UHGV virus genome: UHGV-0248979
Strand: one strand, 5' to 3'
Source of the DNA: a virus
DNA length: 64,000 nucleotides
Under the pieces are notes generated by a model. It worked only from the letters and a program-made list of their open reading frames with translations. It made no database searches and was not told the DNA's origin. This document shows, in pieces, positions 12,840 through 60,134 of the stretch. Made by a program: the position numbers and the translations under genes. How positions within the stretch are numbered: the first letter of the stretch is position 1; every line of letters begins with the position of its first letter.

Positions 12840-13643
12840 TTACCACTTCCCGTTACCTAAACCCATAACACGTAGGTTAGTTTTCTTATTAGCGATGGCC
12901 AGGTACTCCTGCGCTAACGCACGAACTTCACCACGACGAGATTCTGTCGCGATAGCAGACGTAGTGTTAGGATTTCGCAGAATGTCCTCCAGCGCCTGGA
13001 GAGAAACACGACGGTCCAGCAGTACACGAGTGGATTCTTGCGCCACTTTGCTACCGCGTTGAATTGCAGAGTATTTGTTACAAATCTGCAACCCGTCTTC
13101 GATAACCCAGTCGAACGTCACCAGGCGATCTAAGCGACGTGTTTTCACACCACCTACATAGCCTTCACGTACGATTGCGCGCAGAGAGAAACATACGTTC
13201 TGGTGTGGGTTTTCGAGCGCTTCTGCTAAGTACGGACCACGTTCACGGTTCGGCTTAACCCAGCCCCAGATTTCCATAACCGGCAACCCGTTACAGGTTT
13301 GGTCGGTTGGAATCACTTCAACCTCACGAATGTGCATACAGACGTTTTTCGTCTCAATCCACTCGTTGCGATCGATCCACTGCGCTTCGGTCATGCCAGG
13401 CTCTGGTGCCGGGTGATCTTCTTCCCCGAACAGATTCCCTGCTTTCACTTTACGCATAAAAATATTCGAGCGTTCGAATACGTGTTTAGACTCGTTATAG
13501 GCGTAAAAAATCCCTTCCGAGTTAAAGATATTCAAAGCACCCAACAGTACGCGGTAATAACCATCCGCGTCTTTCTCCAGTGTGGCTGGAGCGTTAACAC
13601 CGGCTAACGCTACACAGTTGTAACGCAGTGTTAAATTGTCCAT
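12840..13643 (-). CDS. hypothetical protein, 267 aa
   Basis: ORF abutting the downstream gene. Confidence 0.5.
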   Translation of the reverse strand: MDNLTLRYNCVALAGVNAPATLEKDADGYYRVLLGALNIFNSEGIFYAYNESKHVFERSNIFMRKVKAGNLFGEEDHPAPEPGMTEAQWIDRNEWIETKNVCMHIREVEVIPTDQTCNGLPVMEIWGWVKPNRERGPYLAEALENPHQNVCFSLRAIVREGYVGGVKTRRLDRLVTFDWVIEDGLQICNKYSAIQRGSKVAQESTRVLLDRRVSLQALEDILRNPNTTSAIATESRRGEVRALAQEYLAIANKKTNLRVMGLGNGKW

Positions 13644-19200: not shown

Positions 19201-20386
19201 ACGGGTTAGGCAGCTGAACGAAACGTTTAGACGATTCAGACAGGAACTGATATGCTTTAGAACTTAAGCGGCCCGCTTCAGCTAAGCGTTGTGCTTCCTG
19301 TTTAATAATTTCGTCATGCGGAATGACTTTCTCGACAACAATTGTCGTCGGTTTAACGTCTTCCTTCGGTTCTTCAATAACAACGTCTTCTTTTTCATCG
19401 AAGGTGTTATCGGATTCCACCACAGCGTCATTAACAACGTCATCGTCGTCGACAACATCAACGGTTTCTTCTTCGACGTCTTTAAGGAAAACACGTTCGT
19501 CACCTTCAGGCGTTAGGAACTCCGCTTCGTACGCGTTAGACGGTGCTTGTGTCATTACACGCACCAGCGTACGGTAGAACATCCGCGCCATTTGGTCGTC
19601 ACTTAAACGGCCGCCGGACGATTTACGCATTTTCTCTACAACACCCATGTTCATGGACGTAAAGCCCGTGTTGTGGGTGAAGATAAAGTTCATTCGTGAC
19701 AGCTGAGTTAAATCCATTCCCGCGAATAAGGAATCAGATTGTTTTCCATAAGCCCAAGCAAACAATTCTAATAACCACAGCAAGTTGAAGTCCTGGAACT
19801 TCTCAATCTTGCTCTTAACACGGTCGTTATAGGTTGTTTGAAACTTCTGGAACGAAGGCAATGTCGAACCCAGTTCAATAACGAAATAGTTCTGACGCAT
19901 GTATTCTTGCGTGTCGTATTTGAACTGGTTAATCATCAATAGTTGGATGTTACGCAATCTATCGTACCAGGCTAACTGGGTGTCAGGATAGTAGTAGTGC
20001 GATAACATCGGCGTGTAGTTCTCGATCAGGAGAACTTTTAAGTCTTTGCGAACCAGTTCGTCTGAGGTAAGACGACGCATCGGACGGTTTGCACGGTGGT
20101 AGGCAAAGATAGCACGTTCTTGTCCCTGTACAGGTTTGTTACGAGGATTCCCACTAATACCGTCTTCCGGTAATTTAAAGTGGTGGCGAACCTGCGCAGG
20201 TTTTTCTAACGGTTGAATAATTTCAAGCGTTGCAGGCGGTGCTAATACCACCTGGTCGAGATCAATGACGTGGAGTACAGAACCACGCGGTATCTGTAGC
20301 TTCTCGAGCGGGATAATCCTCGGATTACCAAACTCGTCGGTTTTGCGCACCGAGAAGCGTTGGTTAAACTGTTTAATGAGCAGCAT
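16220..20386 (-). CDS. large hypothetical protein, 1388 aa; candidate partner subunit of a non-canonical RNA polymerase
   Basis: Very long ORF directly downstream of the DYDGD-motif gene; internal acidic low-complexity stretch; no canonical motif confirmed. Confidence 0.6.
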   Translation of the reverse strand: MLLIKQFNQRFSVRKTDEFGNPRIIPLEKLQIPRGSVLHVIDLDQVVLAPPATLEIIQPLEKPAQVRHHFKLPEDGISGNPRNKPVQGQERAIFAYHRANRPMRRLTSDELVRKDLKVLLIENYTPMLSHYYYPDTQLAWYDRLRNIQLLMINQFKYDTQEYMRQNYFVIELGSTLPSFQKFQTTYNDRVKSKIEKFQDFNLLWLLELFAWAYGKQSDSLFAGMDLTQLSRMNFIFTHNTGFTSMNMGVVEKMRKSSGGRLSDDQMARMFYRTLVRVMTQAPSNAYEAEFLTPEGDERVFLKDVEEETVDVVDDDDVVNDAVVESDNTFDEKEDVVIEEPKEDVKPTTIVVEKVIPHDEIIKQEAQRLAEAGRLSSKAYQFLSESSKRFVQLPNPYNPKETYGEALTVHEKDIVVKAEPKKVQRLVTDEGWAENVTDQMVKQYNQTMMTKDVLAAVASSQRLGLAVHNHTVEKEVSVTGTIEHHTLRVQPVGGEPTTVRFSIPGLTEDGTWVANGVEYTMRRQRVDLPIRKVAPDTVALTTAYGKNFVRRSDKVANDYGRWLTNAIITRAVDPTNTEVTDARLANVFDPTQHLPRQYTEIARRIASFNANGYMWNFDYKEAVNFFNDEQLRDADAAKLLPVAKRPRSETILAMDDKSMLYGVNGNKVEPVGTIAEVLGFNSQKVPREMTELSLMGKSLSLGFIFSFYLGLQGMLKHFGIQYELVPAGQRVDKNAYDSIIRLQDCKLLVTCDNDQQKMILHGLDRYLKHLVAYTESEADREDIYLNLLRDADGLTPRYINELKQMRSAFVDDMHARILRKMGEPETFIGLLERSNELLQTDHSLPEINGDEMMFLGNQRIAYHIYTAMVRAMRNYNNAPGSNRKFELTQDMVWGAINSDPSVLLAPGANPIQSIKEKDVITMGGTGGRNRKTMVHHTREFQPSDIGIVSGNTVDNGDVGITAFVTNNPRFDTVDGTTFKREEKTPKPSDTLSFIDGLVPDTLMDDAKRQNFVGIQLGSATSCNGATTTPYRTEQEKFVAHRTSVKHARVIDKAGKITGLSKDHIEITYEDGSKEAFPLGRWFGPHEGTFYPHTLVTRWKAGDKLPAGAVITYNEQHFEPDIYDPTQVSWKNGVLATVALLEAEEVIEDSNAISERFAKKMVGQVTKLKEVTINSNQMLLEIVNEGDHVDVDTILCTFTDDLTGDMSAFSQEAAATLQSLSSYAPRAGVRGIVDKIEVVYHGETEDMTPSLAELVRKYDRIRRKAALAVGRGDPVSGSVNGDYRVEGVPLAFNSLCVRFFITHDVEMAAADKMVIANQLKTTVQEVMYGDNKTEDGDDLDVLFGRDSVDARIVGSIQRIGTANAVGEQAGILIGRILDGEAVPDLPATLK

Positions 20387-20395
20387 TGCTTAGCC

Positions 20396-22015
20396 TTATG
20401 GGTTCTTTAATAACGCTTGCGTTGCACGTTTAATCACGTTGTTGATGGGATTGATTTTAAAGTTCCCATCAGAATCGAACCAGTAGTTTTTCGAGTGTAT
20501 CCAGTTCCGGTTTTCCTCGAGCGCTTCCTGGGACATAGGCGCGTTAAACGAGCCGGTATCACCGTCATAGTCACCCCCTAAGCCACCTAAGCGTGAAGGG
20601 TGTGGTGCCATAGACTCAACGAAGGTAGGAACCGACCGGTCAGGGTAGCTGATAGCCCCTCGGGGTTTTTCAGTTTCCCAGTCATCTTCCAGTTCTTTTA
20701 AATATAAAGATGACGTGGTGGTCTCCAATCTTATGGTCGATGAATACGTCGAGCCTCGGCCTGTAACGGGATAACGTGTAACGAAACCGAAATAATCGTT
20801 CCAAAGTTCGTAGCCCGACAAATAAAGCAATTCGACGAGTGTCATACCGTGAACGAATTTTCGGTCAAACGTTTTAGGAAGTTCTTCAATATCGTAGAAC
20901 ACCTTAAAATGTTTGGTGTCTTGGTAAACCAACGCAATGTAGTGGGTGTCATCCAACATAATCGGCTGATGGCGAAGCTCGCGAGCTTCCATTCGGTTGA
21001 TTAAGGATTCAATCCCATCGTCGGTGGTAAAGGTGTCGTATACACGACCACCTACTTCCAAGAATTCACGTTTAAGGGTTTTGGTGTTTACGCCGTAAAG
21101 GTTGCCATCACCAGCACGGATGTTACCGAGGTAACGTTCACGTATTTGGTACTGCGCAACAGGGAGTAATGCTTTTAAACCCTGGTATAAGCCAATTTTG
21201 GTGTCGGTAGGACGAATAGCGTCTTCACGACCCATGCATTTAGACCCCGTCGAGAACGAGGACAATACGTTACGTGTCCCGTTCATTAATTTACGAGACG
21301 TCACTTTACGACGTTGGAAACCCCCTTTACCATCTTGGATGTTAAAGAAATACATCCAGATATCATTGAAGGTTTGTTGAAGTTTCCAGCGTACGGGGTT
21401 AGTTAATTCGACACGGGTTGCTCGGTCAGGGATTGCCCTGGCGAGAGATACCAACCGACGATACATCCCACCGATTTCTTCTTCTTGCTCTCTGCCATCT
21501 TGCCGAATTACTAAATCGCGTAAACCCGCGGGTAACACGAGAACGTATCGACTAAGACTGACGGGGCGGAATTTCAAAAAGAAATCCACGGTTTCGTCAC
21601 GCTGTAGGGACTCGTTACGCTTAGGTTTTAAATCGTTATAGTGACTGAGGAAGAAGTTAAAACCGGTATCTGCGCCTGGGTCTCCCGGCAAGGCCGGTTC
21701 GAAATCTTTTTCTTTTTCGCTCCACGTTGCGTAGCGTTTTCCAGAACAAATTTCTTCGTAGAGTTGTTTGAGTTGGAATAACGCCAAACACACTGTCGGC
21801 GAAATGATATCGAGCTTAATATCGATATAAGAGAATGTAGAGTCTCGCGCTTCACTACCCGTGAGTCCAAAAATCTCTGTAGAGTAAAGACCTTCGGGGT
21901 GAAAGTTTTTTGTTAACCCCTGGAAAGTATCCGTGGTCGTGACGGGTCGTAATCGCGACACAAGAGACTTGTTTACATTGAGCAGATAAAAGTCAACCCA
22001 ATTAAGTTTATTCAC
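20396..22015 (-). CDS. protein with DxDGD (DYDGD) motif; candidate RNAP beta-prime-like N-terminal fragment
   Basis: GTG start with AGGAGAT SD; ...RYPVTGRGSTYSS... and ...LGGLGGDYDGDTGSFNAPMS... near C-terminus resemble YSGRSV and NADFDGD of RpoC. Confidence 0.6.
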   Translation of the reverse strand: MNKLNWVDFYLLNVNKSLVSRLRPVTTTDTFQGLTKNFHPEGLYSTEIFGLTGSEARDSTFSYIDIKLDIISPTVCLALFQLKQLYEEICSGKRYATWSEKEKDFEPALPGDPGADTGFNFFLSHYNDLKPKRNESLQRDETVDFFLKFRPVSLSRYVLVLPAGLRDLVIRQDGREQEEEIGGMYRRLVSLARAIPDRATRVELTNPVRWKLQQTFNDIWMYFFNIQDGKGGFQRRKVTSRKLMNGTRNVLSSFSTGSKCMGREDAIRPTDTKIGLYQGLKALLPVAQYQIRERYLGNIRAGDGNLYGVNTKTLKREFLEVGGRVYDTFTTDDGIESLINRMEARELRHQPIMLDDTHYIALVYQDTKHFKVFYDIEELPKTFDRKFVHGMTLVELLYLSGYELWNDYFGFVTRYPVTGRGSTYSSTIRLETTTSSLYLKELEDDWETEKPRGAISYPDRSVPTFVESMAPHPSRLGGLGGDYDGDTGSFNAPMSQEALEENRNWIHSKNYWFDSDGNFKINPINNVIKRATQALLKNP

Positions 22016-22044
22016 GCTAAATCTCCTGATACGGATTAAACGTT

Positions 22045-25000
22045 ATGGCTAAAAAAGGTAAAGATGATTTCGATGAAATCGATCTTGATAACATGGACGA
22101 CTGGGACGATTTTGATGAGCCCCCTCGTCAACAAGACCAATCGCGTAACCCGGTCATGGACACATTTCGTGCTGCCCGTAAGTCGGCGTTGTCGACTATC
22201 TGGCCCGAAAACAAACGTGATCAGGTTATTTTAAAAGGGATGCCCAAACCTGCGGCAGAAGCCTACGAAGGCTATCAAAACGTTAAAGCTGCAGGTCAAG
22301 ACATTCTGGCCCATACGAAAGACGAGATTGAAAAGACGTCTCGCGTCGTTAAGATGCAAGCGAGACAGTTAGGCCCAACACTGAAACGGTATTTACCGGA
22401 ATCCGTAACACGGAAAATCGACAAGTGGGCACGTAACGATCAAATCGACTATGGGAATTACGATCCTAAACAAGCGATGATGGATCGTGAGCTGGACAGC
22501 GTGTTCTCAGGTGCACCGCAAACAGCGGACCAGCAACGTGAAACGCAAGAAGGGATGGTTGAAGACCGCCTGCGTGACACGATTAAGGACATGAAGTCCG
22601 ACGCACTGTTCCAGACAGTAATCGGTATTGCAAAAGACGTCAACTTAACGACTAGCTTAAGTCGTGGCGTGTTGTTGAATGTTCAGCGTAAGCAGTTAGA
22701 GCTACAATATCGAACATTGTTTGCTTTGCAGGATATTGCGAAACTCAAACAAGACGAGTTTGCACGCAATACACCGGCATTAGAAGCTATCGTTAAGAAC
22801 ACAGCACTGCCAGACTACGCGAAGGAAGAGTTTTCTGAAGTTCGTTGGGCTAATGTAAAACGTAAAGCTGCGGAGTGGATGAACCCCTTACGCTACGCAG
22901 ATAATTTCGTTGATCAGATTCGTGAAAATGCGAAGAAGAAAATCTCGAACATCTTTAGTGACGGCCGTGGAATTCTAGAACAAGTTCTAGGGATGGCTCA
23001 GGAAGATGACTTTGGCATGTCGGACAGCTCATCGTTGTCCCCTGACCGTCGTAACACAAACTCGCGTAATAAAGCGGCAGGTTTTGCAGGTGGTTGGTTA
23101 GCAAAACGGTTCTTACAACCCCAGATCGAGCGTCTCCAAAACTGGACTCGTGGCGAGTTAGAGAAAAATCCAGAAGTAATGAAGCGGTTGGAAAAGCTGA
23201 ATTACATCGTTAGTAATAAATCGTCACTTTCTAACTCAGCTATTGCGGGGGAGTCGAGCGGATGGTTAGCTGACTTTTTCCGCCTGTTGAACGACGTGGG
23301 ATTGGTTAACCCGCTACGTCGCGAAACGTTAGCATTAGACGATCGCTCTGCGGAATCTCTTTCTGCGGCGGCGAAATTCGATCGTAAAGCTTACCTTAGT
23401 ATCACCGAAGTTATTCCGACGTTACTGTCCGAGATTAACAAATCTATCCGTCGTGGATATGGGGAACACCACGATCAGGTTTATGACCTGACCACACGCG
23501 GTATGGTGGATCGTAAAGTTATTGGTAATCGTGTTCGTAAAGCGGTTGCTAATGACGATCAGCGTAAACGTTTACAGACTTACATCAACGATACTGTTGA
23601 CTTTATCGATAAAGATAAAACGCTCGATCGGAAAACACGCCAAGCATTAGCGGACTACATCGAATCTCGTGCCTCAGAAGGGAAAGCGTTCGACGTAGGG
23701 TCTTTATTGAAAGACCCGATGCACATGTATCGGTACATGAACGCAAACGCTGTGGAAGCGATTCAGGGTGTTTTAGAAGCCCGTTCTGCGGAACTGGTTG
23801 GTGGACACCATGAACTGAGCAACGCGATTTCAAACAAAATCGCCGCTATCCAGTCAACGATTCGCGCACGTCAGGACACTGTTGATGCTGCGTCTGTGAT
23901 TTACGGCGAGAATGCACTTCGTGATTCCGGTATTTTTAAATACGATGCGAAGAAAGACATTTTCGAGGTCGATAAGGACATTAACGATCCCTATACGTTA
24001 TTTAATGACCTGTCGATGGGTAAGACCCGCTCTGGACGTTCGTTAACCCGTGAGCAAGAGATTCAGCGTAAATTGCAAAACGGTTCTGCGCTGGGTGATT
24101 ACTTGCGTCGGATGGGTGCAGGCGCAGAGCCGAGCTTTGAAGACAAAGAACTGTCCAATGTACGTGGCGGTGGAAAAGGAGGTCGTGGTCGCGGTTTAAG
24201 CGCACGCCAACTCGCTGCGGTACTTTATGGAGAGAAATCCACTAACTTTGTTGAACTATTAAGCAGTCGTCCAGACACGAACGCCGGGTTGGAGCATCAA
24301 TTCGACCGTTTGATTGATGCTGTACGTAAACAGCCCGAATCTAGCACAGTGCAAGATATCCTCAAACACGTTAAGAACATGGATGAGGAAGGTATTCTCC
24401 TAGCCAGTTTAGGCGGTAGTCGTGATGACGGTGACGAATCTGAAAGTTCGAGTGACTCGGGTCGTAAACGTCGTCGTAAACGCAAACGTATTGTGCTAGG
24501 CGAGACAGGCTTGTTACGCCGTTGGGCTGGAGTGCTTTGGGATACCGGTTCAGGTGTAGGGCGTTTTGGTAAGAATCTGTTCCTACGTGGGAAAGATCGT
24601 CTGCAGGCTTTAGGTGGTTTTATCCGTGGGAAATTCTCAGGCGGCTCCTCCGAAGGACCCGGTGTATTTAGCCGACTGAAAGGGTTAGTAACAGGTACTC
24701 TATCGACAGGTTGGAATTCTGCTGTAGCTTTCGGTAAAGGCGTTTTAGGTGTTCGTGATATTTACGATGAACGTGGCAACGTCGTATTACAAGGAAGTCG
24801 TTTAGAAGCTGGGGAATATTACCAGGCTGACCCGAAAACTGAGAAGCTGATTCAACTTAAAACCCTCGACGATATTAAACTGGGACGTGATATTGTCGAT
24901 GAAGCGGGTAATTTAATCTTAGCTGCTGCTGATTTGGCTGCCGCAGGTAAACTGCGCTTCTACAAAGGTGGTAAAGTTCAAGCGCTTTTCCAGTACATTT

Positions 25001-28000
25001 CTGGGAAAGCAGGAACGGCGGTAAACAAAGCTGTGACTTTACCGAAGAAACTTTTAGGCTTCATTTCACCTAAAGCGGCTTCGTTGTTCGAGAAAGCACG
25101 TGAGTGGCTAAATGAGGTTCCAGAGGGCGCAGAGAAAACCCGTTTACAAAGCATGATTTCCCGTGTAACTGGAATGCCAGCACGTTTGTGGAACAATGCA
25201 AAACGCGGGTTTGAGAAGCTCAAAGAGTTGGCTTCTGATAACCCTCTGACACGTTGGTGGCAGAACCGTAAGGAAGGGGGTTCTGGTGGTGGGTTTAGTG
25301 TGTTCTCATGGTCGAACGGCCGTAAAACTAACCACATCTTAATCCGTATCTACAAACTCCTTAACCGGAGATTGCCAGGTGAACCAGAAGATGATACCTG
25401 GACAGAACAGATGGAACGGAATACGGGAGCCAGCTCAGTTAAAGGATTATTCCAACGTGCTAAGGACATACGTGAAGGGTTCCGTGAACATTTTCGGGGG
25501 TTCCGGGATTGGCGTGGTCGGATGCGTGACAGAATGTCCCGTTATCGCAGTGCGGTAGGTGGTCGTCTTTCTCGTTGGGGCGGTGCCGCACGTGGTTGGT
25601 TTGATCGTTTCCGTGGCCGTGCAAGCGATATGGTCGATACTTTCCGAGACCCACGTTACGATATCGGCACACGTTATCGAATGGAGAGTCGTTTAGCAGG
25701 ACGCGATGACGATGTTGCTGAGTTTTATCGTCAACACATCTACGCAAGAGGCAAGGTGTCTAAAACACGTATCATCGATGCGGCAAAAGAAGACTTAGAC
25801 ACCGTAACGGATAGCGCTGGACGTGTGATTAATAAAGGGAAACAGAAAGCCCGTAGCGTTGGGTCAGCTTTACTGGAACGCCTGAACCGAATGGTTAATC
25901 TTCAGGAAATGTCATGGTTTAACACCATGCGTGATTCTGCGGAAAAAGCAGGTGCTTCGGAAGGTTTGTTAAGAACTATGTTCAGTAAGTTCGGCCAACG
26001 CAATAAGCCGCCTGCCAGTGATGAAAAACGCGATTACTTCCAGTTCTTCCGACGCCGTCGGCGTTCTAAGGAAGAGGAAAAGGCTAAGAAAGAGGCTGAG
26101 AAGAAAGGTGGTAAACGTGGGGTAATGGATTTCCTTAAAGGATTGCCGTTGGTAGGACCAATCGTGAGTATTTTAGGCACAGTGGGTTCAATCTTAGGTA
26201 AACTTGCAAAATGGGGAATCTTCAAGCCGGTTGGATTTGCAGGCAAAGCGTTGTGGAACGTTGGTAAGTTTGCCGTGACCCGTTTGGCTGTCCCTGCGGT
26301 TAGTGCTGTCGCGACAGCTGCATCTGCAGTGGTAACTGCGGTTGGCTGGCCGATTATCGGTTTGGTAGCCGCTGGCGCAGGGTTAACGTGGTTTTATTAT
26401 AAAACTAAAGATCGTGTAAATGCCCAGTATCTGGATAACATGCGATTGGCACAGTACGGTTTTAGAGACCACGATGAATGGTCTTCCGACGACGGTGCAA
26501 AAGCACGTTATTTAGAAGACAACTTGAAACCGTATATCTCTTATACAGAGAACGGTCAAGCGCAGCTGCGTGGTTTGTCCGGTGACGATGTGAAGAAACT
26601 GGCCGAAGGGTTTGGTACTAACGTAGAAGACAAAGGCGAAATGCTGGCGTTTAGTGCGTTTATGCTACAACGTTTTGTGCCGATCTATTTACGTTGGATT
26701 ACAGCGTTACGTTCAATGGATAACGATATCGCGTTAGCTGACGTCGGTAATCCGTCGAAGGTATCAAAAGCAGACATGCTTACCATCTTTAACAAAATGA
26801 AGATGACAAAAGATGCACCTGCTTTTAAATCGCTGACAGACCCCCGTAAAGTTAACCAAGGTTGGTTCTCTAAAGCGTGGGATTTCGTGACCTTCACACC
26901 GGCAGAATTTTTGTCAGGCGAAGAAGTTGTTGAGGCACAAGATCGTGTTTTCCGTTCGATCAACATGCGCCGCGATGATAAGCGTAAGAAAACAACTGGA
27001 GCCGGTGCTGTGCCTGAAGGACATAAGGTTGCTTCTGTGGCAGAATCTTCGCAGGTACTCGCGAAGAACGATACCGAACGTAACGAAACCGTTGCTAAAG
27101 CTGAGGGTTGGGAAGACGGTACTGAACAGGTTCAAATTCAAGTTGACTGGAGAGTATTACCTGAGAAGAAAGATTTGGACGCGATGGAATCCGTCCGTTG
27201 GAAATCTTACGGTGTGAAATCTGTTAATGAGACAACACGTACCCTCTTTAGGTTGCTTGAGAAAGAAGTGTTGAAAGACACGGATATCAAAAATTGCATT
27301 TATAAGGGTGATTGGAAGAAAGCAATTTCTGCGATTGCGCCTGATGCAATTGGCGGTCCAAAAGAGGAGCGTTACAAGAACTGGTTCTATAATCGATTCT
27401 TACCAGTATTCATGACCTACGTTTATGGTGTAAAACGTTACGTACCTCATGCCGATCCGTTGGATTTGAAACTCACGGGGGGTTTCCTCTATGAGCTGGC
27501 ACTGATGATGCGTGGTGCTTACAACATGAAAGGGGGTATCCGTCAGTCTGTGTGGGAAATCGCATTTAACCCGTTAGGAGGCGATGCGAATACTGACGCG
27601 GGTTCGGTGAAGGAAGAATTAGCAACGTTGAAAGAGTTGTCTAAAGAACCTGATCTGGCTGTAAGGAATATGCTCAAAGAAACACCGAGCACGCCTAAGC
27701 GTATGACATGGAAATCACCAGCGACAAACTCCAGTGTCCATCAGACGAATGAAGATAGCAAAGAGCGTTATAAGGGAATTAACAGCTACGGCGAAGCTTC
27801 AAACGACGGATACTTACCAAAAGGTGGTCAGTACGGTACGCCAGGTGACTTATCACAAGTTGTTGGCGATATGGGTATAGGGAACTATGCGAAGTATTCC
27901 ACTGGACAATCTGGTATCACCCTCGGTGAGTTACAAGACGGTGATTACAAATCGTTAGTGACTAAATACCCAAGGGAAATGCTTGGCAAACCGATGCAGT

Positions 28001-29208
28001 CAAATACCGAAGCCATTAAGTCATTGATTATTGACGCGGCAAACATGGTGGGTGTTCCGCCATCCGTTGCGATTGCAATGGCACAAGCAGAATCTGGCTT
28101 ACAGTATGGCAACTACCCTGGCGCATCCTCTGGTAGACCGAGAAGTAATAAGATGTCTGCCGCTGGACTGTTCCAATTTACCAATGGTACTTGGAACGGG
28201 GTTATGAAGCAGTACGCCCGAAGATACGGTATCCCACAAACCGACCAGTTCGACCCGTGGGCTAACGCAATCTTAGGTGTTAACTTCATTAGAGACAACA
28301 TCAAGACCGCACAAAAGGATCTGGGTGGAATTGCCCCACCTCCGGCAGTAGCGTACCTATACCACTTCTTAGGTCCAGGTGGTGGTGCTGAGTTCCTTAA
28401 AGCCTGGAAAACCAATCCTAACGGGTCGCCCGACAAAGTGAAGTATATTACACCTGCTGTTCTTAACGGCAACGAAGGTGTTTTCTATATCATGAACGGG
28501 AAGAAACGCGTTAGGATGCGTACGATCGGTGAGGTTGTCGAGGAACTGAACCGCCGTATGGGCGCGGTTGGAACTAACGAGATTGCGGCAAATCCTGCGT
28601 CTGCGAAAAACATGACAAAAGGGTTATCGCCAGTTCCATCGTCTCCTGCAATTGCTGCTGGCGCAGCTAACGATCCGTCTATTTCTGGTCCGGCAGATAA
28701 CCTGCCAGCCGCGAACGAGGCGAATCGTGACTCCGCTTTAGCAGACAAAGGAGCGATGGGCGCTGAAGATATTAAAGCTGCAACTGGGGGTGGTCCAGCT
28801 GTGCCGAGTCCTGGCGGTGACGTCACGCCAAGTGATGCGTCTGTCGTTGTTGAAACGGTGGGTCAAAATGCGCGTGCTGATGGCCTGGGCGAAGAGGAAG
28901 TTGCCAAAGTAAAAGAAGGTGCTAGACAGCAAATGGAGAAAACAGCTCGTCCTGCGCCAACGGTAACGTCTGATGCACAGACTGCGCCAACGGTGAACAG
29001 CGGTGATCCGATTAGCGTACAGCAGCTGGCGGTTGCAAAAGAGTCTGCGGGTTATCTGAGAGAGATTGTTACAATTCTTCGTCAGCGACCACAGGCTATG
29101 CAGTCCTCCCCAGCTAGTTCGGCGGCTTCTGCCCCGGGGTCAGCATCACGTAACATCGCGGTTGAACAACCTGCCCGCCAACTCGACGTTGGTCGTAAAC
29201 GGGCGTAA
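22045..29208 (+). CDS. giant virion-type protein with transmembrane cluster and C-terminal lytic transglycosylase (SLT) domain
   Basis: 2387-aa ORF; hydrophobic segment ...LPLVGPIVSILGTVGSILGKLAKWGIF...AVGWPIIGLVAAGAGLTWFYY; SLT-like ...AMAQAESGLQYGNY...AAGLFQFTNGTWNG... near C-terminus. Confidence 0.7.
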   Translation: MAKKGKDDFDEIDLDNMDDWDDFDEPPRQQDQSRNPVMDTFRAARKSALSTIWPENKRDQVILKGMPKPAAEAYEGYQNVKAAGQDILAHTKDEIEKTSRVVKMQARQLGPTLKRYLPESVTRKIDKWARNDQIDYGNYDPKQAMMDRELDSVFSGAPQTADQQRETQEGMVEDRLRDTIKDMKSDALFQTVIGIAKDVNLTTSLSRGVLLNVQRKQLELQYRTLFALQDIAKLKQDEFARNTPALEAIVKNTALPDYAKEEFSEVRWANVKRKAAEWMNPLRYADNFVDQIRENAKKKISNIFSDGRGILEQVLGMAQEDDFGMSDSSSLSPDRRNTNSRNKAAGFAGGWLAKRFLQPQIERLQNWTRGELEKNPEVMKRLEKLNYIVSNKSSLSNSAIAGESSGWLADFFRLLNDVGLVNPLRRETLALDDRSAESLSAAAKFDRKAYLSITEVIPTLLSEINKSIRRGYGEHHDQVYDLTTRGMVDRKVIGNRVRKAVANDDQRKRLQTYINDTVDFIDKDKTLDRKTRQALADYIESRASEGKAFDVGSLLKDPMHMYRYMNANAVEAIQGVLEARSAELVGGHHELSNAISNKIAAIQSTIRARQDTVDAASVIYGENALRDSGIFKYDAKKDIFEVDKDINDPYTLFNDLSMGKTRSGRSLTREQEIQRKLQNGSALGDYLRRMGAGAEPSFEDKELSNVRGGGKGGRGRGLSARQLAAVLYGEKSTNFVELLSSRPDTNAGLEHQFDRLIDAVRKQPESSTVQDILKHVKNMDEEGILLASLGGSRDDGDESESSSDSGRKRRRKRKRIVLGETGLLRRWAGVLWDTGSGVGRFGKNLFLRGKDRLQALGGFIRGKFSGGSSEGPGVFSRLKGLVTGTLSTGWNSAVAFGKGVLGVRDIYDERGNVVLQGSRLEAGEYYQADPKTEKLIQLKTLDDIKLGRDIVDEAGNLILAAADLAAAGKLRFYKGGKVQALFQYISGKAGTAVNKAVTLPKKLLGFISPKAASLFEKAREWLNEVPEGAEKTRLQSMISRVTGMPARLWNNAKRGFEKLKELASDNPLTRWWQNRKEGGSGGGFSVFSWSNGRKTNHILIRIYKLLNRRLPGEPEDDTWTEQMERNTGASSVKGLFQRAKDIREGFREHFRGFRDWRGRMRDRMSRYRSAVGGRLSRWGGAARGWFDRFRGRASDMVDTFRDPRYDIGTRYRMESRLAGRDDDVAEFYRQHIYARGKVSKTRIIDAAKEDLDTVTDSAGRVINKGKQKARSVGSALLERLNRMVNLQEMSWFNTMRDSAEKAGASEGLLRTMFSKFGQRNKPPASDEKRDYFQFFRRRRRSKEEEKAKKEAEKKGGKRGVMDFLKGLPLVGPIVSILGTVGSILGKLAKWGIFKPVGFAGKALWNVGKFAVTRLAVPAVSAVATAASAVVTAVGWPIIGLVAAGAGLTWFYYKTKDRVNAQYLDNMRLAQYGFRDHDEWSSDDGAKARYLEDNLKPYISYTENGQAQLRGLSGDDVKKLAEGFGTNVEDKGEMLAFSAFMLQRFVPIYLRWITALRSMDNDIALADVGNPSKVSKADMLTIFNKMKMTKDAPAFKSLTDPRKVNQGWFSKAWDFVTFTPAEFLSGEEVVEAQDRVFRSINMRRDDKRKKTTGAGAVPEGHKVASVAESSQVLAKNDTERNETVAKAEGWEDGTEQVQIQVDWRVLPEKKDLDAMESVRWKSYGVKSVNETTRTLFRLLEKEVLKDTDIKNCIYKGDWKKAISAIAPDAIGGPKEERYKNWFYNRFLPVFMTYVYGVKRYVPHADPLDLKLTGGFLYELALMMRGAYNMKGGIRQSVWEIAFNPLGGDANTDAGSVKEELATLKELSKEPDLAVRNMLKETPSTPKRMTWKSPATNSSVHQTNEDSKERYKGINSYGEASNDGYLPKGGQYGTPGDLSQVVGDMGIGNYAKYSTGQSGITLGELQDGDYKSLVTKYPREMLGKPMQSNTEAIKSLIIDAANMVGVPPSVAIAMAQAESGLQYGNYPGASSGRPRSNKMSAAGLFQFTNGTWNGVMKQYARRYGIPQTDQFDPWANAILGVNFIRDNIKTAQKDLGGIAPPPAVAYLYHFLGPGGGAEFLKAWKTNPNGSPDKVKYITPAVLNGNEGVFYIMNGKKRVRMRTIGEVVEELNRRMGAVGTNEIAANPASAKNMTKGLSPVPSSPAIAAGAANDPSISGPADNLPAANEANRDSALADKGAMGAEDIKAATGGGPAVPSPGGDVTPSDASVVVETVGQNARADGLGEEEVAKVKEGARQQMEKTARPAPTVTSDAQTAPTVNSGDPISVQQLAVAKESAGYLREIVTILRQRPQAMQSSPASSAASAPGSASRNIAVEQPARQLDVGRKRA

Positions 29209-29216
29209 CAGTAATC

Positions 29217-29236
29217 GGGGGTAGGTAACTACCCCC
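29217..29236 (+). terminator. hairpin after the giant gene (putative terminator or attenuator)
   Basis: gggggtag / gtaa / ctaccccc followed by tactttttag. Confidence 0.45.
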
Positions 29237-29255
29237 TACTTTTTAGAGGTATAAA

Positions 29256-31427
29256 GTGGACGCTAGAACAGCTAACGACTCAAGCTGGGTCAAAAGCCTC
29301 TTTAACGGCGTGTTGGATGGCCGAGATGAACGTTTCCTGGCCTTGCGACGCTACTCCAACGGCATGTTATCGTTCGAGGACACCACGTTAGGTGGCAGTA
29401 AAGCGATTAACACGCCGCCCCAATTTACATGGTTTGCAGATCCGCCGTCGACTGGCGCATTTGCACAACCTGACAACCCGAGAGCCGAAACCAAATCATT
29501 CTCTAATAACCGAGAAACGGGTTCGTATAAACTCGGTACCTATTTCTACGAAAGTATTAATCAGAATTCGTTTTATGTTCATTGTCGGTTTGGTAAACCG
29601 AAATATCTGGGTATGGCCGCGTTCTTTGCGAACATGTACGACTCCAACCTAGCGTACTTGGCCCGTACTGGGGACTATCCAGGTATGATGAGAACGATGG
29701 TTTCGTATTTAGGTGCAGCGGCAATATGGGCCACTGTAGGTACCGTTGCTTTTGCGGTAATTCTTATTACGCCGCGAATTCTAAAAGCGGTATTGAATAA
29801 ACAAACTTCACGTTACTATTACGTTAAGCCAACGATGCATTTGTATTTACGTGCCGTGCAAAACATTCTAAACACGCAACTCATTTATCGTCGTTTGGTT
29901 CCCACAGGCGTGCTCGGTAATTTCAAACTACAAGAAAATACCGATGATGGTACAAATTCATACAGCAATGATAAACAAGACTGGTATGCTTCGTTACCTA
30001 CTATCTGGAAAGATAACGGGGAGTTTGACGTCTACCGAATGATAAACCGCTATCAAACTTTAGCGAATTATCAGACCAAAGCCATAGAGCAAATGCGCGT
30101 TGAAAGCGGTGGGGACGAAGAAGCATTTGCAAGAAAACTACGTGCGTTTTATAACGAAGGGATGTACTCCAAACGCGTTATTAATGATGCGGGTAGTTTC
30201 GAAGTTTCATTGCATGACTTAGAAACGGTTGCTCAAAAAGACAACGCTTATAAAGCGCCTTTTGAAAATATTAACGATCAAGAGTCTAAGTTGGTTGAAG
30301 GGATCACTGGCACACTAACCGCTGGCGGTACCGCAGATGAAATCGATGCGAACACAAAGAAACTTCGAGAATCGATGGCAGCAAACATGGCTGCGGCGGA
30401 AAAAGCTGAAAATGAAATCGGTGGTGAGGATGTCCCCGATATAGCTAAGATACAAGAATGGGCAGATGCTGGTTCTAAAGAAAACGTAGGGACCTTCTTT
30501 AAAGATTTCGTCGAAATGGGTAAAAACTATATCGATGGTATTAAGGAAAATGCGCTTTCTGAAATCCGTAACGGCTCACAATGGGTGTCGTGGCGTATCG
30601 ACGCTAAAGACACGGTTTCTCGTTCGTTCTCCAACTCTACAAAAGAGCCAGAGATTTCAGGCACCGTTAACTCGTTAACCGCGAAAGCACGTTCGTTAGA
30701 AGTCAACCTTTCCGGCGGCCAAACGGGTTTCAGCGCCGTAGATGCTTTAGTTTCCGGGATTAAGTCCGCGATGCGTGGCGTTGCCGACACCTTACATTTG
30801 ACAGGGATCATGTCGTTGTACAACTCTTCGGTAATTGACTTTCCGGAGGTGTGGGATAGTTCGGACGCATCGGGAGATGACATTACGTTAACGATACCGT
30901 TACGTTGTTGGTCTGGCAACGACTTGGATATCTTCCAAGACCTGCTCGTGCCGCTGTCATTCTGGATCGCTGCGGTCTGTCCTCTGGCTACAGGTAAACA
31001 ATCCTTTACTCACCCGTTCTACTTAGAGTGTTACTCACAAGGACGCTTTTCTTTCCGTAACGCGATGGTGACGTCGATGTCGTTACAGTTCGGTGTGGGT
31101 GGTTTAGGTTGGCGGCCAGGTGATTCCGTCCCATTGTCTTGCGACATCTCTGTTACTATTCGTGACTTGACTCGCGTTATGTACATGCCCATTGTTACCG
31201 ACACAGGTGTGTGGGATGATGATAACAAATTCAGTGAATTTATGGCGTGTTTAGGTGGTGCTACGTTGTACGAGCGTACTAACGGTATTGCACGTGCCAA
31301 GATTAATGCGAGCATCTGGGCACAAAACTGGGCATCTGCGTGGTCACAGGGTAGTTTTATTAACTCGGCACTGGATGTTATCCCAGCCCGTCAGATCGCG
31401 AACATCTTCTTGCCGCAAGCACGTTAA
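29256..31427 (+). CDS. hypothetical protein, 723 aa, likely virion-associated
   Basis: GTG start with AGAGG SD; co-directional with and just downstream of the giant gene. Confidence 0.55.
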   Translation: MDARTANDSSWVKSLFNGVLDGRDERFLALRRYSNGMLSFEDTTLGGSKAINTPPQFTWFADPPSTGAFAQPDNPRAETKSFSNNRETGSYKLGTYFYESINQNSFYVHCRFGKPKYLGMAAFFANMYDSNLAYLARTGDYPGMMRTMVSYLGAAAIWATVGTVAFAVILITPRILKAVLNKQTSRYYYVKPTMHLYLRAVQNILNTQLIYRRLVPTGVLGNFKLQENTDDGTNSYSNDKQDWYASLPTIWKDNGEFDVYRMINRYQTLANYQTKAIEQMRVESGGDEEAFARKLRAFYNEGMYSKRVINDAGSFEVSLHDLETVAQKDNAYKAPFENINDQESKLVEGITGTLTAGGTADEIDANTKKLRESMAANMAAAEKAENEIGGEDVPDIAKIQEWADAGSKENVGTFFKDFVEMGKNYIDGIKENALSEIRNGSQWVSWRIDAKDTVSRSFSNSTKEPEISGTVNSLTAKARSLEVNLSGGQTGFSAVDALVSGIKSAMRGVADTLHLTGIMSLYNSSVIDFPEVWDSSDASGDDITLTIPLRCWSGNDLDIFQDLLVPLSFWIAAVCPLATGKQSFTHPFYLECYSQGRFSFRNAMVTSMSLQFGVGGLGWRPGDSVPLSCDISVTIRDLTRVMYMPIVTDTGVWDDDNKFSEFMACLGGATLYERTNGIARAKINASIWAQNWASAWSQGSFINSALDVIPARQIANIFLPQAR

Positions 31428-31443
31428 TGTTTGAGAGGAAATA

Positions 31444-32007
31444 ATGGCTAATACGCTATTAGGTAAATCAGGAAAACAACTGGTTTATGAGTTATTAGTA
31501 AAAAAGAATCCAGGTTTGGTAGAGAAAGGTATTACAATCGATAAGTTGAATTTTGGCACACCGTCACATATTCCCGCGGTAGAAACACCAGAAACTCAAT
31601 TTACGCGATTAAATACCCAACTTAGCGTCCAGGGAATTATTGAACAGAAAACGTTTGGTAAAATTGACGTTATTTATCGTCGGTTGGATTTAGAGCACCT
31701 CTTAGGTGATTTTGTAGTTTCTGTTGCGGGTGTTAATGCGGCTACGGTATCTGAGGTACTACAGCTTTTTCGCACTAAGTACAATTTGCAGATTACCGAC
31801 GATGAAGTTGAGAACCCAACAGCTGCACCAGACAGCAAAGATAAAACCATCATTATCATGAATGGGAGATCTTTGGCGTGGACGGGGCGGTTGGAGGTGT
31901 ACTTGACAGAGCTACCGTCCGACGGTAAGGATATTTCGAAGTTGATTAAAGTCACCGAACTTGACGGTTTAACGTATATCTCTTCTGGGATTGTTCCTGG
32001 CGCTTAA
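31444..32007 (+). CDS. hypothetical protein, 187 aa
   Basis: ORF 16 nt after the previous gene, ends at a bidirectional terminator. Confidence 0.5.
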   Translation: MANTLLGKSGKQLVYELLVKKNPGLVEKGITIDKLNFGTPSHIPAVETPETQFTRLNTQLSVQGIIEQKTFGKIDVIYRRLDLEHLLGDFVVSVAGVNAATVSEVLQLFRTKYNLQITDDEVENPTAAPDSKDKTIIIMNGRSLAWTGRLEVYLTELPSDGKDISKLIKVTELDGLTYISSGIVPGA

Positions 32008-48080: not shown

Positions 48081-48105
48081 TTTAATGCTCCTAAACACTT
48101 TTAGC

Positions 48106-59624: not shown

Positions 59625-60134
59625 TTAGAAGAACGGCCGATTTGGAATGACAGCGTACTCTAAAATGAACATGTGCTCTGGGGCGTCTTCTTTACGCCAG
59701 ACTTTGTGTGTTAACACAAGTTTTTCCAGAATCGTTAGAAAACTACGCTGGCAGTATGTGTTTTCGCCAAGTAGCAGTTTCTGAAGTTCTACAGTAGCGT
59801 CCATATACGCCTGTTTAAAGACTAGGCTACGGTTATACTGTCCGGTAAAATTCCAAAGCAAGACTTTCCCTTCTTCGGTTTCTTTTACCGTTGGACGTAA
59901 ACCACAAATCCACAGCAAGGCAAGGTTGACGTTCCAGTCAAACTCTAAACCTTCCTCTTCGTCATCACCGAATGCTGTAGGTAAAGCATCGTAAAATTCG
60001 TGTTTCTCTGCGAATTCTTCATCCGATTTAATCTCGTCTTCGATGCTGCTTCGGACGATACCGTAAATGTCTTTCGCGGTTAGTTGTGCGGCTTTTGTAA
60101 TGCCTTTATACCAATCGGTTACAACGATGCTCAA
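59625..60134 (-). CDS. hypothetical protein, 169 aa
   Basis: ORF overlapping the SLT gene by 4 nt. Confidence 0.5.
   Translation of the reverse strand: MSIVVTDWYKGITKAAQLTAKDIYGIVRSSIEDEIKSDEEFAEKHEFYDALPTAFGDDEEEGLEFDWNVNLALLWICGLRPTVKETEEGKVLLWNFTGQYNRSLVFKQAYMDATVELQKLLLGENTYCQRSFLTILEKLVLTHKVWRKEDAPEHMFILEYAVIPNRPFF

What the first reader, a model, noticed from the sequence alone, without database searches (positions are those of the whole stretch)
22045..29208. 2387-aa giant protein with a central membrane-spanning cluster and a C-terminal lytic transglycosylase domain
Seen: acidic N-terminus (MAKKGKDDFDEIDLDNMDDWDDFDEP), Gly/Arg-rich low-complexity patches (GGGKGGRGRG, RKRRRKRKR), a hydrophobic cluster near residues 1370-1450, an SLT-like segment (...AQAESGLQYGNY...AAGLFQFTNGTWNG...) near residue 2050, and an Ala/Pro-rich tail. 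Established: jumbo myoviruses such as phiKZ carry a >2000-aa virion protein with a C-terminal transglycosylase used for cell-wall penetration. Inference: an ejection or tape-measure-like protein that breaches peptidoglycan and possibly inserts into membranes.
Basis: partly seen in the sequence, partly recalled or inferred. Interest (0 to 1): 0.5.

Follow-up and report, generated by a model that had tools for sequence, protein, structure and literature searches.

The report
Jumbo-phage tape-measure-like tail lysin protein
This 2387-residue protein is a jumbo phage's version of the giant tail protein already known as phiKZ gp181 and SPN3US gp239, which carries a cell-wall-cutting enzyme, so it is an ordinary member of a known but mechanistically poorly understood family.

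The parts
22045..29208 (+). Giant gene, 2387 aa. Orthologue of SPN3US gp239, phiKZ gp181 and Goslar gp204 (PHROG 3201).
   Evidence: ORF. PHROG 3201 matches full-length at E 0. tblastn gives 60% identity over 100% of the query to SPN3US and about 23% to phiKZ gp181. 120 homologues were found, mostly 2200-2570 aa.
22045..22125 (+). Conserved acidic N-terminus (residues 1-27, MAKKGKDDFDEIDLDNMDDWDDFDEPP).
   Evidence: The family consensus keeps the pattern MAKKxxDxDDxDLDD...DDFDEPP. Net charge over residues 1-30 is -8. Function is unknown. By analogy with other tape measure proteins it would be the head-proximal end (inference).
22150..23454 (+). Long-helix region (residues 36-470), containing the invariant motif KNTALPDYAKEEF (residues 251-263, nt 22795-22833).
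   Evidence: AlphaFold2 predicts five helices of 35-45 residues here, with pLDDT mostly 55-90. N252, T253, L255, P256, D257, Y258, A259, K260, E261 and F263 are invariant in 44 sequences.
23392..24114 (+). Compact, mostly helical domain (residues about 450-690).
24142..26118 (+). Basic, Gly/Arg-rich, largely low-confidence region (residues 700-1358). It contains GGGKGGRGRG (708-717), RKRRRKRKR (807-815), a pair of short motifs DIYDERGNVVL / DIVDEAGNLIL (905-960) and a conserved helix KTNHILIRIYKLLNRRL (1094-1110).
   Evidence: Net charge is +47. pLDDT is mostly below 50, with helices at 823-864, 874-900 and 1135-1199. L1099, I1102, L1106 and R1109 are invariant.
26119..26394 (+). Hydrophobic, small-residue-rich cluster (residues 1359-1450). 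It has two or three segments, 1363-1387 and 1412-1450, flanked by basic residues.
   Evidence: The Kyte-Doolittle 90-residue window is reached by 0 of 2000 shuffles. 107 of 120 homologues have a peak of 1.6 or more at relative position 0.54-0.65. The cluster is strong in SPN3US, Goslar and Deimos-Minion, and weak in phiKZ, 201phi2-1 and PCH45. It is marginal on the insertion free-energy scale, with a best window of +2.9 kcal/mol.
26389..27651 (+). Family-specific helical domain (residues 1449-1869), beginning with the conserved MRLAQYG motif (1466-1472).
   Evidence: AlphaFold2 pLDDT is about 80-90. This domain alone finds 373 cluster representatives at E<=1e-3, nearly all 2100-2700-aa proteins with the domain at the same relative position. 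No convincing PDB fold match was found, and the family profile finds no PDB sequence relative.
27982..28569 (+). Lytic transglycosylase (SLT, goose-lysozyme-like) domain, residues about 1980-2175. The catalytic Glu2016 is at nt 28090-28092.
28612..29205 (+). Ala/Pro/Ser/Gly-rich C-terminal tail (residues 2190-2387) with three predicted helices.
   Evidence: Composition. pLDDT is mostly low, with helices at 2222-2247, 2264-2301 and 2323-2346. Conservation is low except for QLxVQ...L..I around residue 2327. By analogy with other tape measure proteins, this end would dock in the baseplate hub (inference).
29217..29245 (+). Terminator-like hairpin plus T-run directly after the stop codon.
   Evidence: GGGGGTAGGTAACTACCCCC followed by TACTTTTT, with 8 pairs of which 6 are G-C. 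It is the strongest such site in 21500-31600.
29256..31427 (+). Downstream partner gene (723 aa). Orthologue of the phiKZ gp182 'spacer' ring and Goslar gp203 'tail tube initiator complex protein'.
   Evidence: phmmer to PDB 11lx_H (Goslar gp203), E 5.6e-56, and 9xqs_K (PHIKZ182), E 5.9e-53. PHROG 3181. Structural roles come from PMC13250141 and bioRxiv 10.64898/2026.04.21.720040.

Best explanation
The protein is this phage's orthologue of SPN3US gp239, phiKZ gp181 and Goslar gp204. This is the single giant internal tail protein of phiKZ-like (Chimalliviridae-type) jumbo myophages, usually called the tape measure protein.

Proposed mechanism, with shown and inferred steps marked:
1. Shown for the SPN3US orthologue: it is built into the tail, and is missing when no tail tube is made.
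2. Inferred: it lies inside the tube, with its C-terminal part near the tube-initiator/spacer rings encoded by the neighbouring gene, and it helps set or template tube assembly.
3. Inferred by analogy with T5 pb2 and other tape measure proteins: on sheath contraction it is expelled ahead of the DNA.
4. Fold and catalytic residues shown here, and activity shown for phiKZ gp181: its SLT domain cleaves peptidoglycan locally in the periplasm.
5. Inferred: the hydrophobic, small-residue-rich cluster at 1359-1450, together with the family-specific domain that follows it, engages the inner membrane and helps form the conduit for the genome and the co-injected proteins.
For: - Homology: PHROG 3201 matches at full length. 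Identity to SPN3US is 60% over 100% of the length, and the chain of homologues reaches phiKZ gp181.
- Gene order: divergent virion RNAP beta-subunit genes, then the giant gene, then the gp182-like gene. This order holds in SPN3US, phiKZ, 201phi2-1, PCH45, Deimos-Minion and Goslar.
- Neighbour: the downstream gene is the tube-initiator/spacer ring protein (PMC13250141).
- Tail location: SPN3US gp239 gave 1710 PSMs in virions against 8 in tail-tube-amber heads, and is labelled Tail. It is called the tape measure protein in PMC10052503 and PMC5105663.
- Length: family length is tightly held, with 5th-95th percentiles of 2212-2762 aa and a median of 2399 aa.
- Secondary structure: helix content is 64% in the N-terminal half, with seven helices of 35-45 residues.
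- Hydrophobic cluster: it is conserved in position.
- Infection imaging: cryo-ET shows the phiKZ inner tube attached to the early-infection vesicle during injection (review PMC13282480).
Against: - No member of the family has had its length changed to test the ruler role.
- The protein is about twice too long for a simple extended-helix ruler. phiKZ has 2237 aa for 43 tube rings of 37.73 A, which is 0.73 A per residue against 1.5 A for an alpha-helix.
- Goslar has 46 tube rings with a 2252-aa protein and phiKZ has 43 with 2237 aa, so length and ring number are not proportional.
- Three compact domains are predicted.
- There is no tail-chaperone gene pair upstream, and no Pfam tape-measure family matches.
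- The text of the phiKZ and Goslar atlases does not mention the protein, so its position in the lumen has not been seen, and no PDB chain matches it.
- The hydrophobic cluster does not exceed shuffles in phiKZ gp181, 201phi2-1 gp276 or PCH45.
- The cluster is marginal for membrane insertion on an additive free-energy scale.
Confidence: 0.72

Rival explanations
1. The protein is an internal tail 'ejection' protein but not a ruler. It would be lumen or baseplate cargo that is expelled to digest peptidoglycan and prepare the inner membrane, while tail length is set by something else.
For: The length does not fit an extended-helix ruler (0.73 A per residue in phiKZ). Length and ring number are not proportional between phiKZ and Goslar. 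Several compact domains are predicted. There is no chaperone pair upstream and no Pfam tape-measure match.
Against: No other candidate ruler is known in these phages. Family length is tightly conserved even when the enzyme module is exchanged. The gene sits next to the tube-initiator/spacer gene. SPN3US incorporation depends on tail tube assembly.
Confidence: 0.18
2. The protein is the central cell-puncturing needle of the baseplate. This is the older reading of phiKZ gp181 and of the 201phi2-1 gp276 annotation.
For: A review table lists gp181 as a 'needle-like cell-puncturing device' (PMC5380687). The 201phi2-1 record note says 'putative cell-puncturing device'. T4 gp5 sets the precedent of a spike that carries a lysozyme.
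Against: The 2026 phiKZ atlas assigns the spike to gp164, the tip to gp163.1 and the hub to gp101. Its text never mentions gp181, and gp181 has no PDB chain of its own. No OB-fold, beta-helix or gp27/gp5-like match appears in either model. Only about 60 residues are predicted as strand.
Confidence: 0.04
3. The protein is a tail fibre, as most GenBank records and PHROG 3201 label it.
For: The only support is annotation labels.
Against: The protein is predicted to be helical, not a beta-rich fibre. It has no receptor-binding or fibre domain in Pfam. phiKZ fibres are built from the gp131 paralogue family and gp145/146. A muralytic domain and a hydrophobic cluster do not fit a fibre.
Confidence: 0.02
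4. The protein is a capsid-internal ejection protein like T7 gp16, stored in the head and ejected to build a trans-envelope channel.
For: The SLT domain is 31-35% identical to the internal virion protein D of T7-like phages. These phages do package many ejection proteins in the head.
Against: The SPN3US orthologue is nearly absent from DNA-filled tailless heads (8 against 1710 PSMs), whereas the neighbouring virion RNAP subunits are retained.
Confidence: 0.03

Closest known systems
Salmonella phage SPN3US gp239 (SPN3US_0239, 2372 aa, 259 kDa), 'tail tape measure protein'
   Same: It is 60% identical over the full length. It has the same neighbours: gp240/241 virion RNAP subunits upstream and gp238 downstream. 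It has the same hydrophobic cluster (1350-1439, 0 of 500 shuffles), the same SLT motifs and the same MRLAQYG junction.
   Different: 40% of residues differ. The window protein has a 9-residue insertion between SLT motifs I and II. Closer relatives, up to 96% identical, exist only as unnamed metagenome proteins.
Pseudomonas phage phiKZ gp181 (2237 aa), 'tail-associated endolysin' and structural peptidoglycan hydrolase
   Same: It shares the architecture, with homology at the N-terminus and at the post-cluster domain plus SLT domain (about 23% identity over 51% of the query). It shares the synteny. It is essential and is regarded as the likely tape measure. Its muralytic activity has been measured.
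   Different: gp181 has no hydrophobic cluster above chance, only a Gly/Ala-rich stretch at the same place. It is 150 residues shorter.
Escherichia phage Goslar gp204 (2252 aa)
   Same: It has the same synteny, next to gp203, which is the solved tail-tube-initiator complex protein. It has a significant hydrophobic cluster at relative position 0.57-0.59, directly before LRLIAYG.
   Different: According to its record note, its enzyme module is of the COG3179/GH19 type, not SLT. It was not picked up in the listed tblastn rows.
Tape measure proteins with wall-degrading and membrane-active parts, such as T5 pb2 (from my own knowledge; listed as muralytic in PMC5380687)
   Same: The proposed logic is the same. 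A long, mostly helical protein inside the tail is expelled first, carries a peptidoglycan hydrolase module and hydrophobic segments, and is thought to form the channel across the envelope.
   Different: No sequence relationship was detected, and no Pfam tape-measure family matches. This protein is two to three times longer, and about twice too long for its tail if fully helical. It belongs to a contractile tail that already has a separate spike. No chaperone gene pair lies upstream.
phiKZ gp144 endolysin (PDB 3bkh) and T7 gp16 N-terminal transglycosylase
   Different: Those are, respectively, a 260-aa protein with a peptidoglycan-binding domain and a head-stored core protein. Only about 8% of the giant protein is related to them.

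Membership tests
phiKZ gp181 / SPN3US gp239 giant tail protein family (PHROG 3201) | Homology along the full length | tested here: met
   PHROG 3201 matches at E 0 and 2053 bits, in two matched stretches, the best covering residues 1-1038. Identity to SPN3US is 60% over 100% of the query. 120 homologues were found.
phiKZ gp181 / SPN3US gp239 giant tail protein family (PHROG 3201) | Conserved gene order: divergent virion RNAP beta-subunit genes upstream and the gp182/gp238/gp203-like gene downstream | tested here: met
phiKZ gp181 / SPN3US gp239 giant tail protein family (PHROG 3201) | Family-specific helical domain after a hydrophobic or Gly/Ala-rich stretch, starting with the (M/L)R(L/M)xQYG motif | tested here: met
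   Residues 1449-1869 find 373 cluster representatives, almost all giant proteins with the domain at the same relative position. The motif aligns in seven phages.
phiKZ gp181 / SPN3US gp239 giant tail protein family (PHROG 3201) | Component of the virion tail | not testable with these tools
   Shown for the SPN3US orthologue only: 1710 PSMs in virions against 8 in tailless heads.
Tail tape measure proteins (functional class) | Protein length determines tail length | tested here: inconclusive
   No genetic test exists for any member. phiKZ (2237 aa, 43 tube rings) and Goslar (2252 aa, 46 rings) show no proportionality. phiKZ works out at 0.73 A per residue against 1.5 A for a helix.
Tail tape measure proteins (functional class) | Lies in the lumen of the tail tube in the virion | not testable with these tools
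   The text of the 2026 phiKZ and Goslar virion papers does not mention it. No PDB chain exists for it.
Tail tape measure proteins (functional class) | Long and predominantly alpha-helical | tested here: inconclusive
   Helix content is 64% in residues 1-1200 and 48% in 1340-2387, with seven helices of 35-45 residues. However, mean pLDDT is only 57 and 70, and three compact domains are predicted.
Tail tape measure proteins (functional class) | Gene preceded by a tail-chaperone pair with a programmed frameshift | tested here: not met
   The upstream neighbours are virion RNAP subunit genes on the opposite strand, 29 nt away.
Tail tape measure proteins (functional class) | Gene followed by baseplate-hub or tube-initiator genes | tested here: met
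   The downstream gene is the orthologue of the phiKZ gp182 spacer ring and Goslar gp203 tube-initiator complex protein.
Tail tape measure proteins (functional class) | Match to a curated tape-measure sequence family (Pfam or NCBIfam) | tested here: not met
   Pfam at E<=1 returns only SLT. NCBIfam returns nothing.
SLT / family-1 lytic transglycosylase domain (PF01464), gp144-like | Sequence match above the curated threshold | tested here: met
   33.9 bits against a cut-off of 21.3, residues 1994-2092.
SLT / family-1 lytic transglycosylase domain (PF01464), gp144-like | Catalytic Glu in the Glu-Ser motif, plus the GLxQ and Tyr motifs | tested here: met
   E2016 aligns with gp144 E115. E2016, S2017, G2041, Q2044 and F2045 are invariant, and Y2104 and H2107 nearly so, across 44 sequences.
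SLT / family-1 lytic transglycosylase domain (PF01464), gp144-like | Goose-lysozyme-like fold | tested here: met
SLT / family-1 lytic transglycosylase domain (PF01464), gp144-like | Peptidoglycan-cleaving activity | not testable with these tools
   Activity has been measured only for phiKZ gp181 (PMC5380687, citing Briers 2008).
Integral membrane / membrane-inserting segment | Hydrophobic helices long and hydrophobic enough to span a bilayer | tested here: inconclusive
   The 90-residue block is beyond all 2000 shuffles, and its position is conserved. Single 19-residue windows are not beyond chance. AlphaFold2 confidence is low in this region. No dedicated transmembrane predictor was available.
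Tail fibre (database label) | Beta-rich trimeric fibre or receptor-binding domain | tested here: not met
Central spike (T4 gp5/gp27, VgrG-like) | OB-fold plus beta-helix spike, or gp27-like hub fold | tested here: not met

The most novel reading that the evidence does not exclude
The hydrophobic cluster (1359-1450) and the family-specific domain behind it (1449-1869) might be the missing device that couples the tail tube to the inner membrane. In that reading they start the lipid-bounded early-infection (EPI) vesicle into which these phages inject their genome. The giant 'tape measure' would then be a membrane-remodelling ejection machine as well as a ruler.

This fits two published statements. 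Cryo-ET shows the phiKZ tube attached to the vesicle (PMC13282480). The Goslar structure paper names, as a key open question, how the genome is delivered into a lipid vesicle.

It is weakened by two findings. The cluster is weak in phiKZ gp181 and 201phi2-1 gp276, although early-infection vesicles have been reported for 201phi2-1 and Goslar and the phiKZ tube has been seen attached to one. The 64-kb window shows no chimallin or PhuZ gene, so it gives no direct evidence that this phage uses such a vesicle.
Probability: 0.12. Interest if true: 0.7.

Novelty: new member of a known kind. Interest (0 to 1): 0.22.

Why it matters
As a sequence it is routine: one more orthologue of a core chimallivirus tail gene. 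It also corrects the widespread 'tail fibre' label.

The family is worth attention for three reasons.
- It is the largest and an essential protein of these phages.
- About 90% of it has no solved or recognisable fold.
- The text of the two 2026 virion structure papers does not mention it.

It is also the obvious candidate for the first phage protein to meet the peptidoglycan and the inner membrane, in a group whose genome delivery into a lipid vesicle is unexplained. Three results from this analysis give concrete handles for experiments in the SPN3US amber-mutant system:
- the domain map;
- the invariant motifs KNTALPDYAKEEF, KTNxILIRIYKLLNxRL and MRLAQYG;
- the variable strength of the hydrophobic cluster between phages.

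Tried and rejected
- **Solved relatives:** a family profile against all PDB sequences found only the SLT domain. Neither phiKZ gp181 nor the window protein has a PDB chain.
- **Curated families:** NCBIfam gave no hit, and Pfam gave nothing but SLT.
- **Internal repeats:** self-BLAST found none. Only a two-copy short motif, DIYDxxGNxxL, is visible by eye.
- **Ruler test:** the comparison of phiKZ and Goslar ring numbers with protein lengths was inconclusive.
- **Exact-sequence look-up:** the protein is not on record. The closest is a 96%-identical unnamed metagenome protein.
- **Leaderless 'TATG' start:** I considered a start shared with SPN3US and phiKZ and dropped it as uninformative.
- **Rejected readings:** I considered and rejected the tail-fibre, central-spike and capsid-internal readings. 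See the rival explanations.
- **Window-wide scans:** the tRNA, Rfam and tandem-repeat scans were all empty. The window contains no chimallin or PhuZ homologue.
Full report
**Observation**

The window has an uninterrupted ORF at 22045..29208 on the + strand. It starts with ATG and encodes 2387 aa.
- an acidic N-terminus, residues 1-27;
- GGGKGGRGRG at 708-717 and RKRRRKRKR at 807-815, both inside a strongly basic stretch (700-1358, net charge +47);
- a hydrophobic cluster at 1359-1450;
- the motifs AQAES (2013-2017) and GLFQF (2041-2045);
- an Ala/Pro/Ser/Gly-rich tail, 2190-2387.

The hydrophobic cluster needs care. A single 19-residue Kyte-Doolittle window of 1.88 is not unusual for a protein this long, because 444 of 2000 shuffles reach 1.8. 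As a 90-residue block the cluster is beyond all 2000 shuffles, and as a 40-residue block only 4 of 2000 reach it. The segments are rich in Gly, Ala, Val, Ser and Thr. So 'hydrophobic cluster' is confirmed, but 'membrane-spanning' is not established.

**What the window is**

The DNA is about 75% identical to Erwinia phage phiEaH2 and to SPN3US-like Salmonella phages over long stretches. Neighbouring genes are typical of phiKZ-like jumbo phages:
- tail sheath, 5361..7418;
- prohead protease, 12840..13643;
- two virion RNA polymerase beta-subunit genes, 16220..20386 and 20396..22015, on the minus strand and divergent from the giant gene;
- thymidylate synthase, a UvsX-like recombinase and others.

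**Identity of the giant protein**

PHROG 3201 matches at E 0, with homology extending over the full length. tblastn gives 60% identity over 100% of the query to SPN3US_0239, 38-47% to several Erwinia and Cronobacter jumbo phages, and about 23% over 51% to phiKZ gp181.

The gene order is divergent virion RNAP subunit genes, then the giant gene, then a 650-780-aa gene. This order is the same in SPN3US, phiKZ, 201phi2-1, PCH45, Deimos-Minion and Goslar.

The downstream gene here (29256..31427) matches two solved chains: Goslar gp203, 'tail tube initiator complex protein' (11lx_H, E 5.6e-56), and PHIKZ182 (9xqs_K, E 5.9e-53). In the phiKZ atlas gp182 is the hexameric spacer ring under the tube initiator (PMC13250141).

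**What is known about the orthologues**

- SPN3US gp239 (259.1 kDa) is called the tail tape measure protein. It is absent from tailless particles (PMC5105663, PMC10052503).
- The supplementary table gives 521, 595 and 594 spectra in wild-type virions against 0, 4 and 4 in tail-tube-amber heads, and labels the protein 'Tail'. The neighbouring virion RNAP subunits stay with the head.
- phiKZ orf181 has no transposon insertions in 6.7 kb. [quoted passage not shown]
- Muralytic activity of gp181 has been measured (PMC5380687, citing Briers 2008).
- That review's placement of gp181 as the cell-puncturing needle is superseded. The 2026 atlas assigns the spike to gp164, the tip to gp163.1 and the hub to gp101, and its text does not mention gp181 or a tape measure.
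- The text of the Goslar structure paper likewise does not mention gp204, its orthologue.
- No PDB chain corresponds to this protein family outside the SLT domain.

**Anatomy**

I aligned the protein with 43 homologues and made AlphaFold2 models of residues 1-1200 and 1340-2387. Together they give the following map.

| Residues | Feature | Evidence |
|---|---|---|
| 1-27 | Conserved acidic N-terminus | |
| 36-470 | Long helices of 35-45 residues, with the invariant motif KNTALPDYAKEEF at 251-263 | |
| 700-1358 | Basic, low-confidence region with scattered helices, a pair of short motifs at 905-960 and the conserved helix KTNHILIRIYKLLNRRL | |
| 1359-1450 | Hydrophobic cluster | |
| 1449-1869 | Well-predicted helical domain (pLDDT about 80-90) beginning MRLAQYG | |
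| 1870-1979 | Variable linker | |
| ~1980-2175 | SLT domain | |
| 2190-2387 | Low-complexity tail with three helices | |

The 1449-1869 domain, searched on its own against 1.84 billion cluster representatives, finds 373 proteins at E<=1e-3. Nearly all are 2100-2700 aa long and carry the domain at the same relative position. It is therefore a signature of this family and occurs nowhere else.

**The enzyme domain**

- Pfam SLT scores 33.9 bits against a cut-off of 21.3.
- The best solved relative is the phiKZ endolysin gp144. Glu2016 aligns with the gp144 Glu115 of its Ile-Glu-Ser motif. I recall Glu115 as the catalytic residue from my own knowledge of Fokine et al. 2008.
- Glu2016, Ser2017, Gly2041, Gln2044, Phe2045 and Trp2050 are invariant, and Tyr2104 and His2107 nearly so, across 44 sequences down to about 20% identity.
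- In other members of the family the module at this position is different: GH19 (P0041, and Goslar gp204 by its record note), glucosaminidase plus VanY, VanY plus SLT, or SLT plus DUF5675. The overall length stays at about 2200-2600 aa.

This module swapping indicates that what is selected is a wall-degrading function at this place in a protein of fixed size.

**The hydrophobic cluster across the family**

107 of 120 homologues have a Kyte-Doolittle peak of 1.6 or more, at relative position 0.54-0.65. Among characterised phages the picture varies:
- The cluster is significant in SPN3US gp239, Goslar gp204 and Deimos-Minion gp168. In Deimos-Minion it is a glycine-zipper-like run.
- It is not above shuffles in phiKZ gp181, 201phi2-1 gp276 or PCH45.
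- All of them keep at least a short hydrophobic or Gly/Ala-rich stretch directly before the conserved (M/L)R(L/M)xQYG motif.

**Is it a ruler?**

This is the weakest link. phiKZ has 43 tube rings with a rise of 37.73 A, giving 162 nm of tube in a 200-nm tail. For 2237 residues that is 0.73 A per residue, half the 1.5 A of an alpha-helix. Classical tape measure proteins are close to 1.5 A per residue (my own knowledge of lambda gpH and T4 gp29).

Goslar has 46 rings with 2252 residues, so length and ring number are not proportional. In the window protein the part before the hydrophobic cluster (1358 aa) would span 204 nm if it were fully helical. This suggests that only the N-terminal 57% could act as a ruler. 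However, that part contains a compact domain and low-confidence regions, so this is speculation.

There is no chaperone gene pair upstream, and no tape-measure family matches in Pfam or NCBIfam. The tight conservation of length, the neighbouring tube-initiator gene, the dependence on the tail tube for incorporation and the lack of any other candidate all support a tape-measure-like role. None of them proves it.

**Most likely mechanism**

- Shown: homology, tail location of the orthologue, SLT fold and catalytic residues, muralytic activity of gp181, essentiality in phiKZ.
- Inferred: the protein lies inside the tube with its C-terminal part at the initiator/spacer rings.
- Inferred: it is expelled when the sheath contracts and the spike has breached the outer membrane.
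- Inferred: the SLT domain then opens the peptidoglycan locally.
- Inferred: the hydrophobic cluster and the following domain engage the inner membrane to form or prime the conduit for DNA and co-injected proteins.

A tube lumen given as about 68 A in the atlas could hold folded domains one after another. An earlier estimate was 4.5 nm.

**Rival explanations**

- A non-ruler lumen cargo protein is plausible (0.18).
- The central spike is contradicted by the phiKZ atlas and by the absence of any spike fold.
- A tail fibre is supported only by a database label and is contradicted by the predicted structure.
- A capsid-stored T7 gp16-like protein is contradicted by the SPN3US proteomics.

**Novelty and interest**

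The sequence is a new member of a known family. Its closest named relative is 60% identical, and an unnamed metagenome protein is 96% identical.

The family remains mechanistically open. A 2026 review reports that cryo-ET shows the phiKZ inner tube attached to the early-infection vesicle (PMC13282480). The Goslar paper names delivery of the genome into a lipid vesicle as a key open question.

The most novel reading the evidence does not exclude is that this protein's hydrophobic cluster and family-specific domain do that job. I give it about 0.12, mainly because the cluster is weak in phiKZ and 201phi2-1.

Noticed in passing
window 60131..60856 (-): A second, free-standing SLT-type transglycosylase of 241 aa (Pfam SLT E 5e-15; PHROG 4067 E 1.7e-48). 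It is 25% identical over 149 residues to the SLT domain of the giant protein and has its own Glu-Ser motif (YRES). It is probably the endolysin or a gp144-like virion lysin. In phiKZ, gp144 sits at the neck as a structural wedge (PMC13250141).
   Followed up: partly
window 29217..29245 (+): A strong terminator-like hairpin (GGGGGTAGGTAACTACCCCC plus a T-run) lies between the giant gene's stop codon and the GTG start of the tube-initiator/spacer gene at 29256. It suggests the two tail genes are not simply co-transcribed, or that read-through is regulated.
   Followed up: partly
window 22016..22044: Only 29 nt separate the divergent start codons of the virion RNAP subunit gene (GTG at 22015, good AGGAG ribosome-binding site on the minus strand) and the giant gene (ATG at 22045, no clear Shine-Dalgarno sequence). 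Any promoters must overlap the coding sequences. SPN3US has the same tight arrangement.
   Followed up: partly
window 47181..48176 and 48106..49032 (-): Two adjacent paralogous genes both match PHROG 6160 (unknown function). The listed ORFs overlap by about 70 nt, probably because the downstream gene's listed start lies too far upstream.
   Followed up: no
homologues P0096, P0094, P0101 and others; P0096 residues 724-778: Some distant giant homologues carry a Peptidase_S74 (self-cleaving intramolecular chaperone) domain in the N-terminal third, plus VanY and SLT domains. This hints that some family members are cut into two pieces after assembly.
   Followed up: no
PDB entry 36za chain rp, hit: A 648-aa chain deposited as 'Capsid decorator gp77' matches the window's gp182-like tube-initiator/spacer protein at E 7e-55 over about 600 residues. 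Either this fold is reused on a capsid in another phage, or the chain name does not reflect the same role.
   Followed up: no
GenBank and PHROG annotations of the family: Most records label this protein 'tail fiber protein'. The label is contradicted by the predicted helical structure, by the SPN3US literature and by the phiKZ atlas, where the fibres are other proteins. It appears to be propagated misannotation.
   Followed up: yes
window 31444..32007 (+): A 187-aa protein matches DUF7941 (E 1.2e-22). The Goslar structure paper reports this family as abundant virion proteins that may form fibres. Its SPN3US counterpart by position, gp237, is a tail protein by mass spectrometry (273 against 12 PSMs).
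   Followed up: partly
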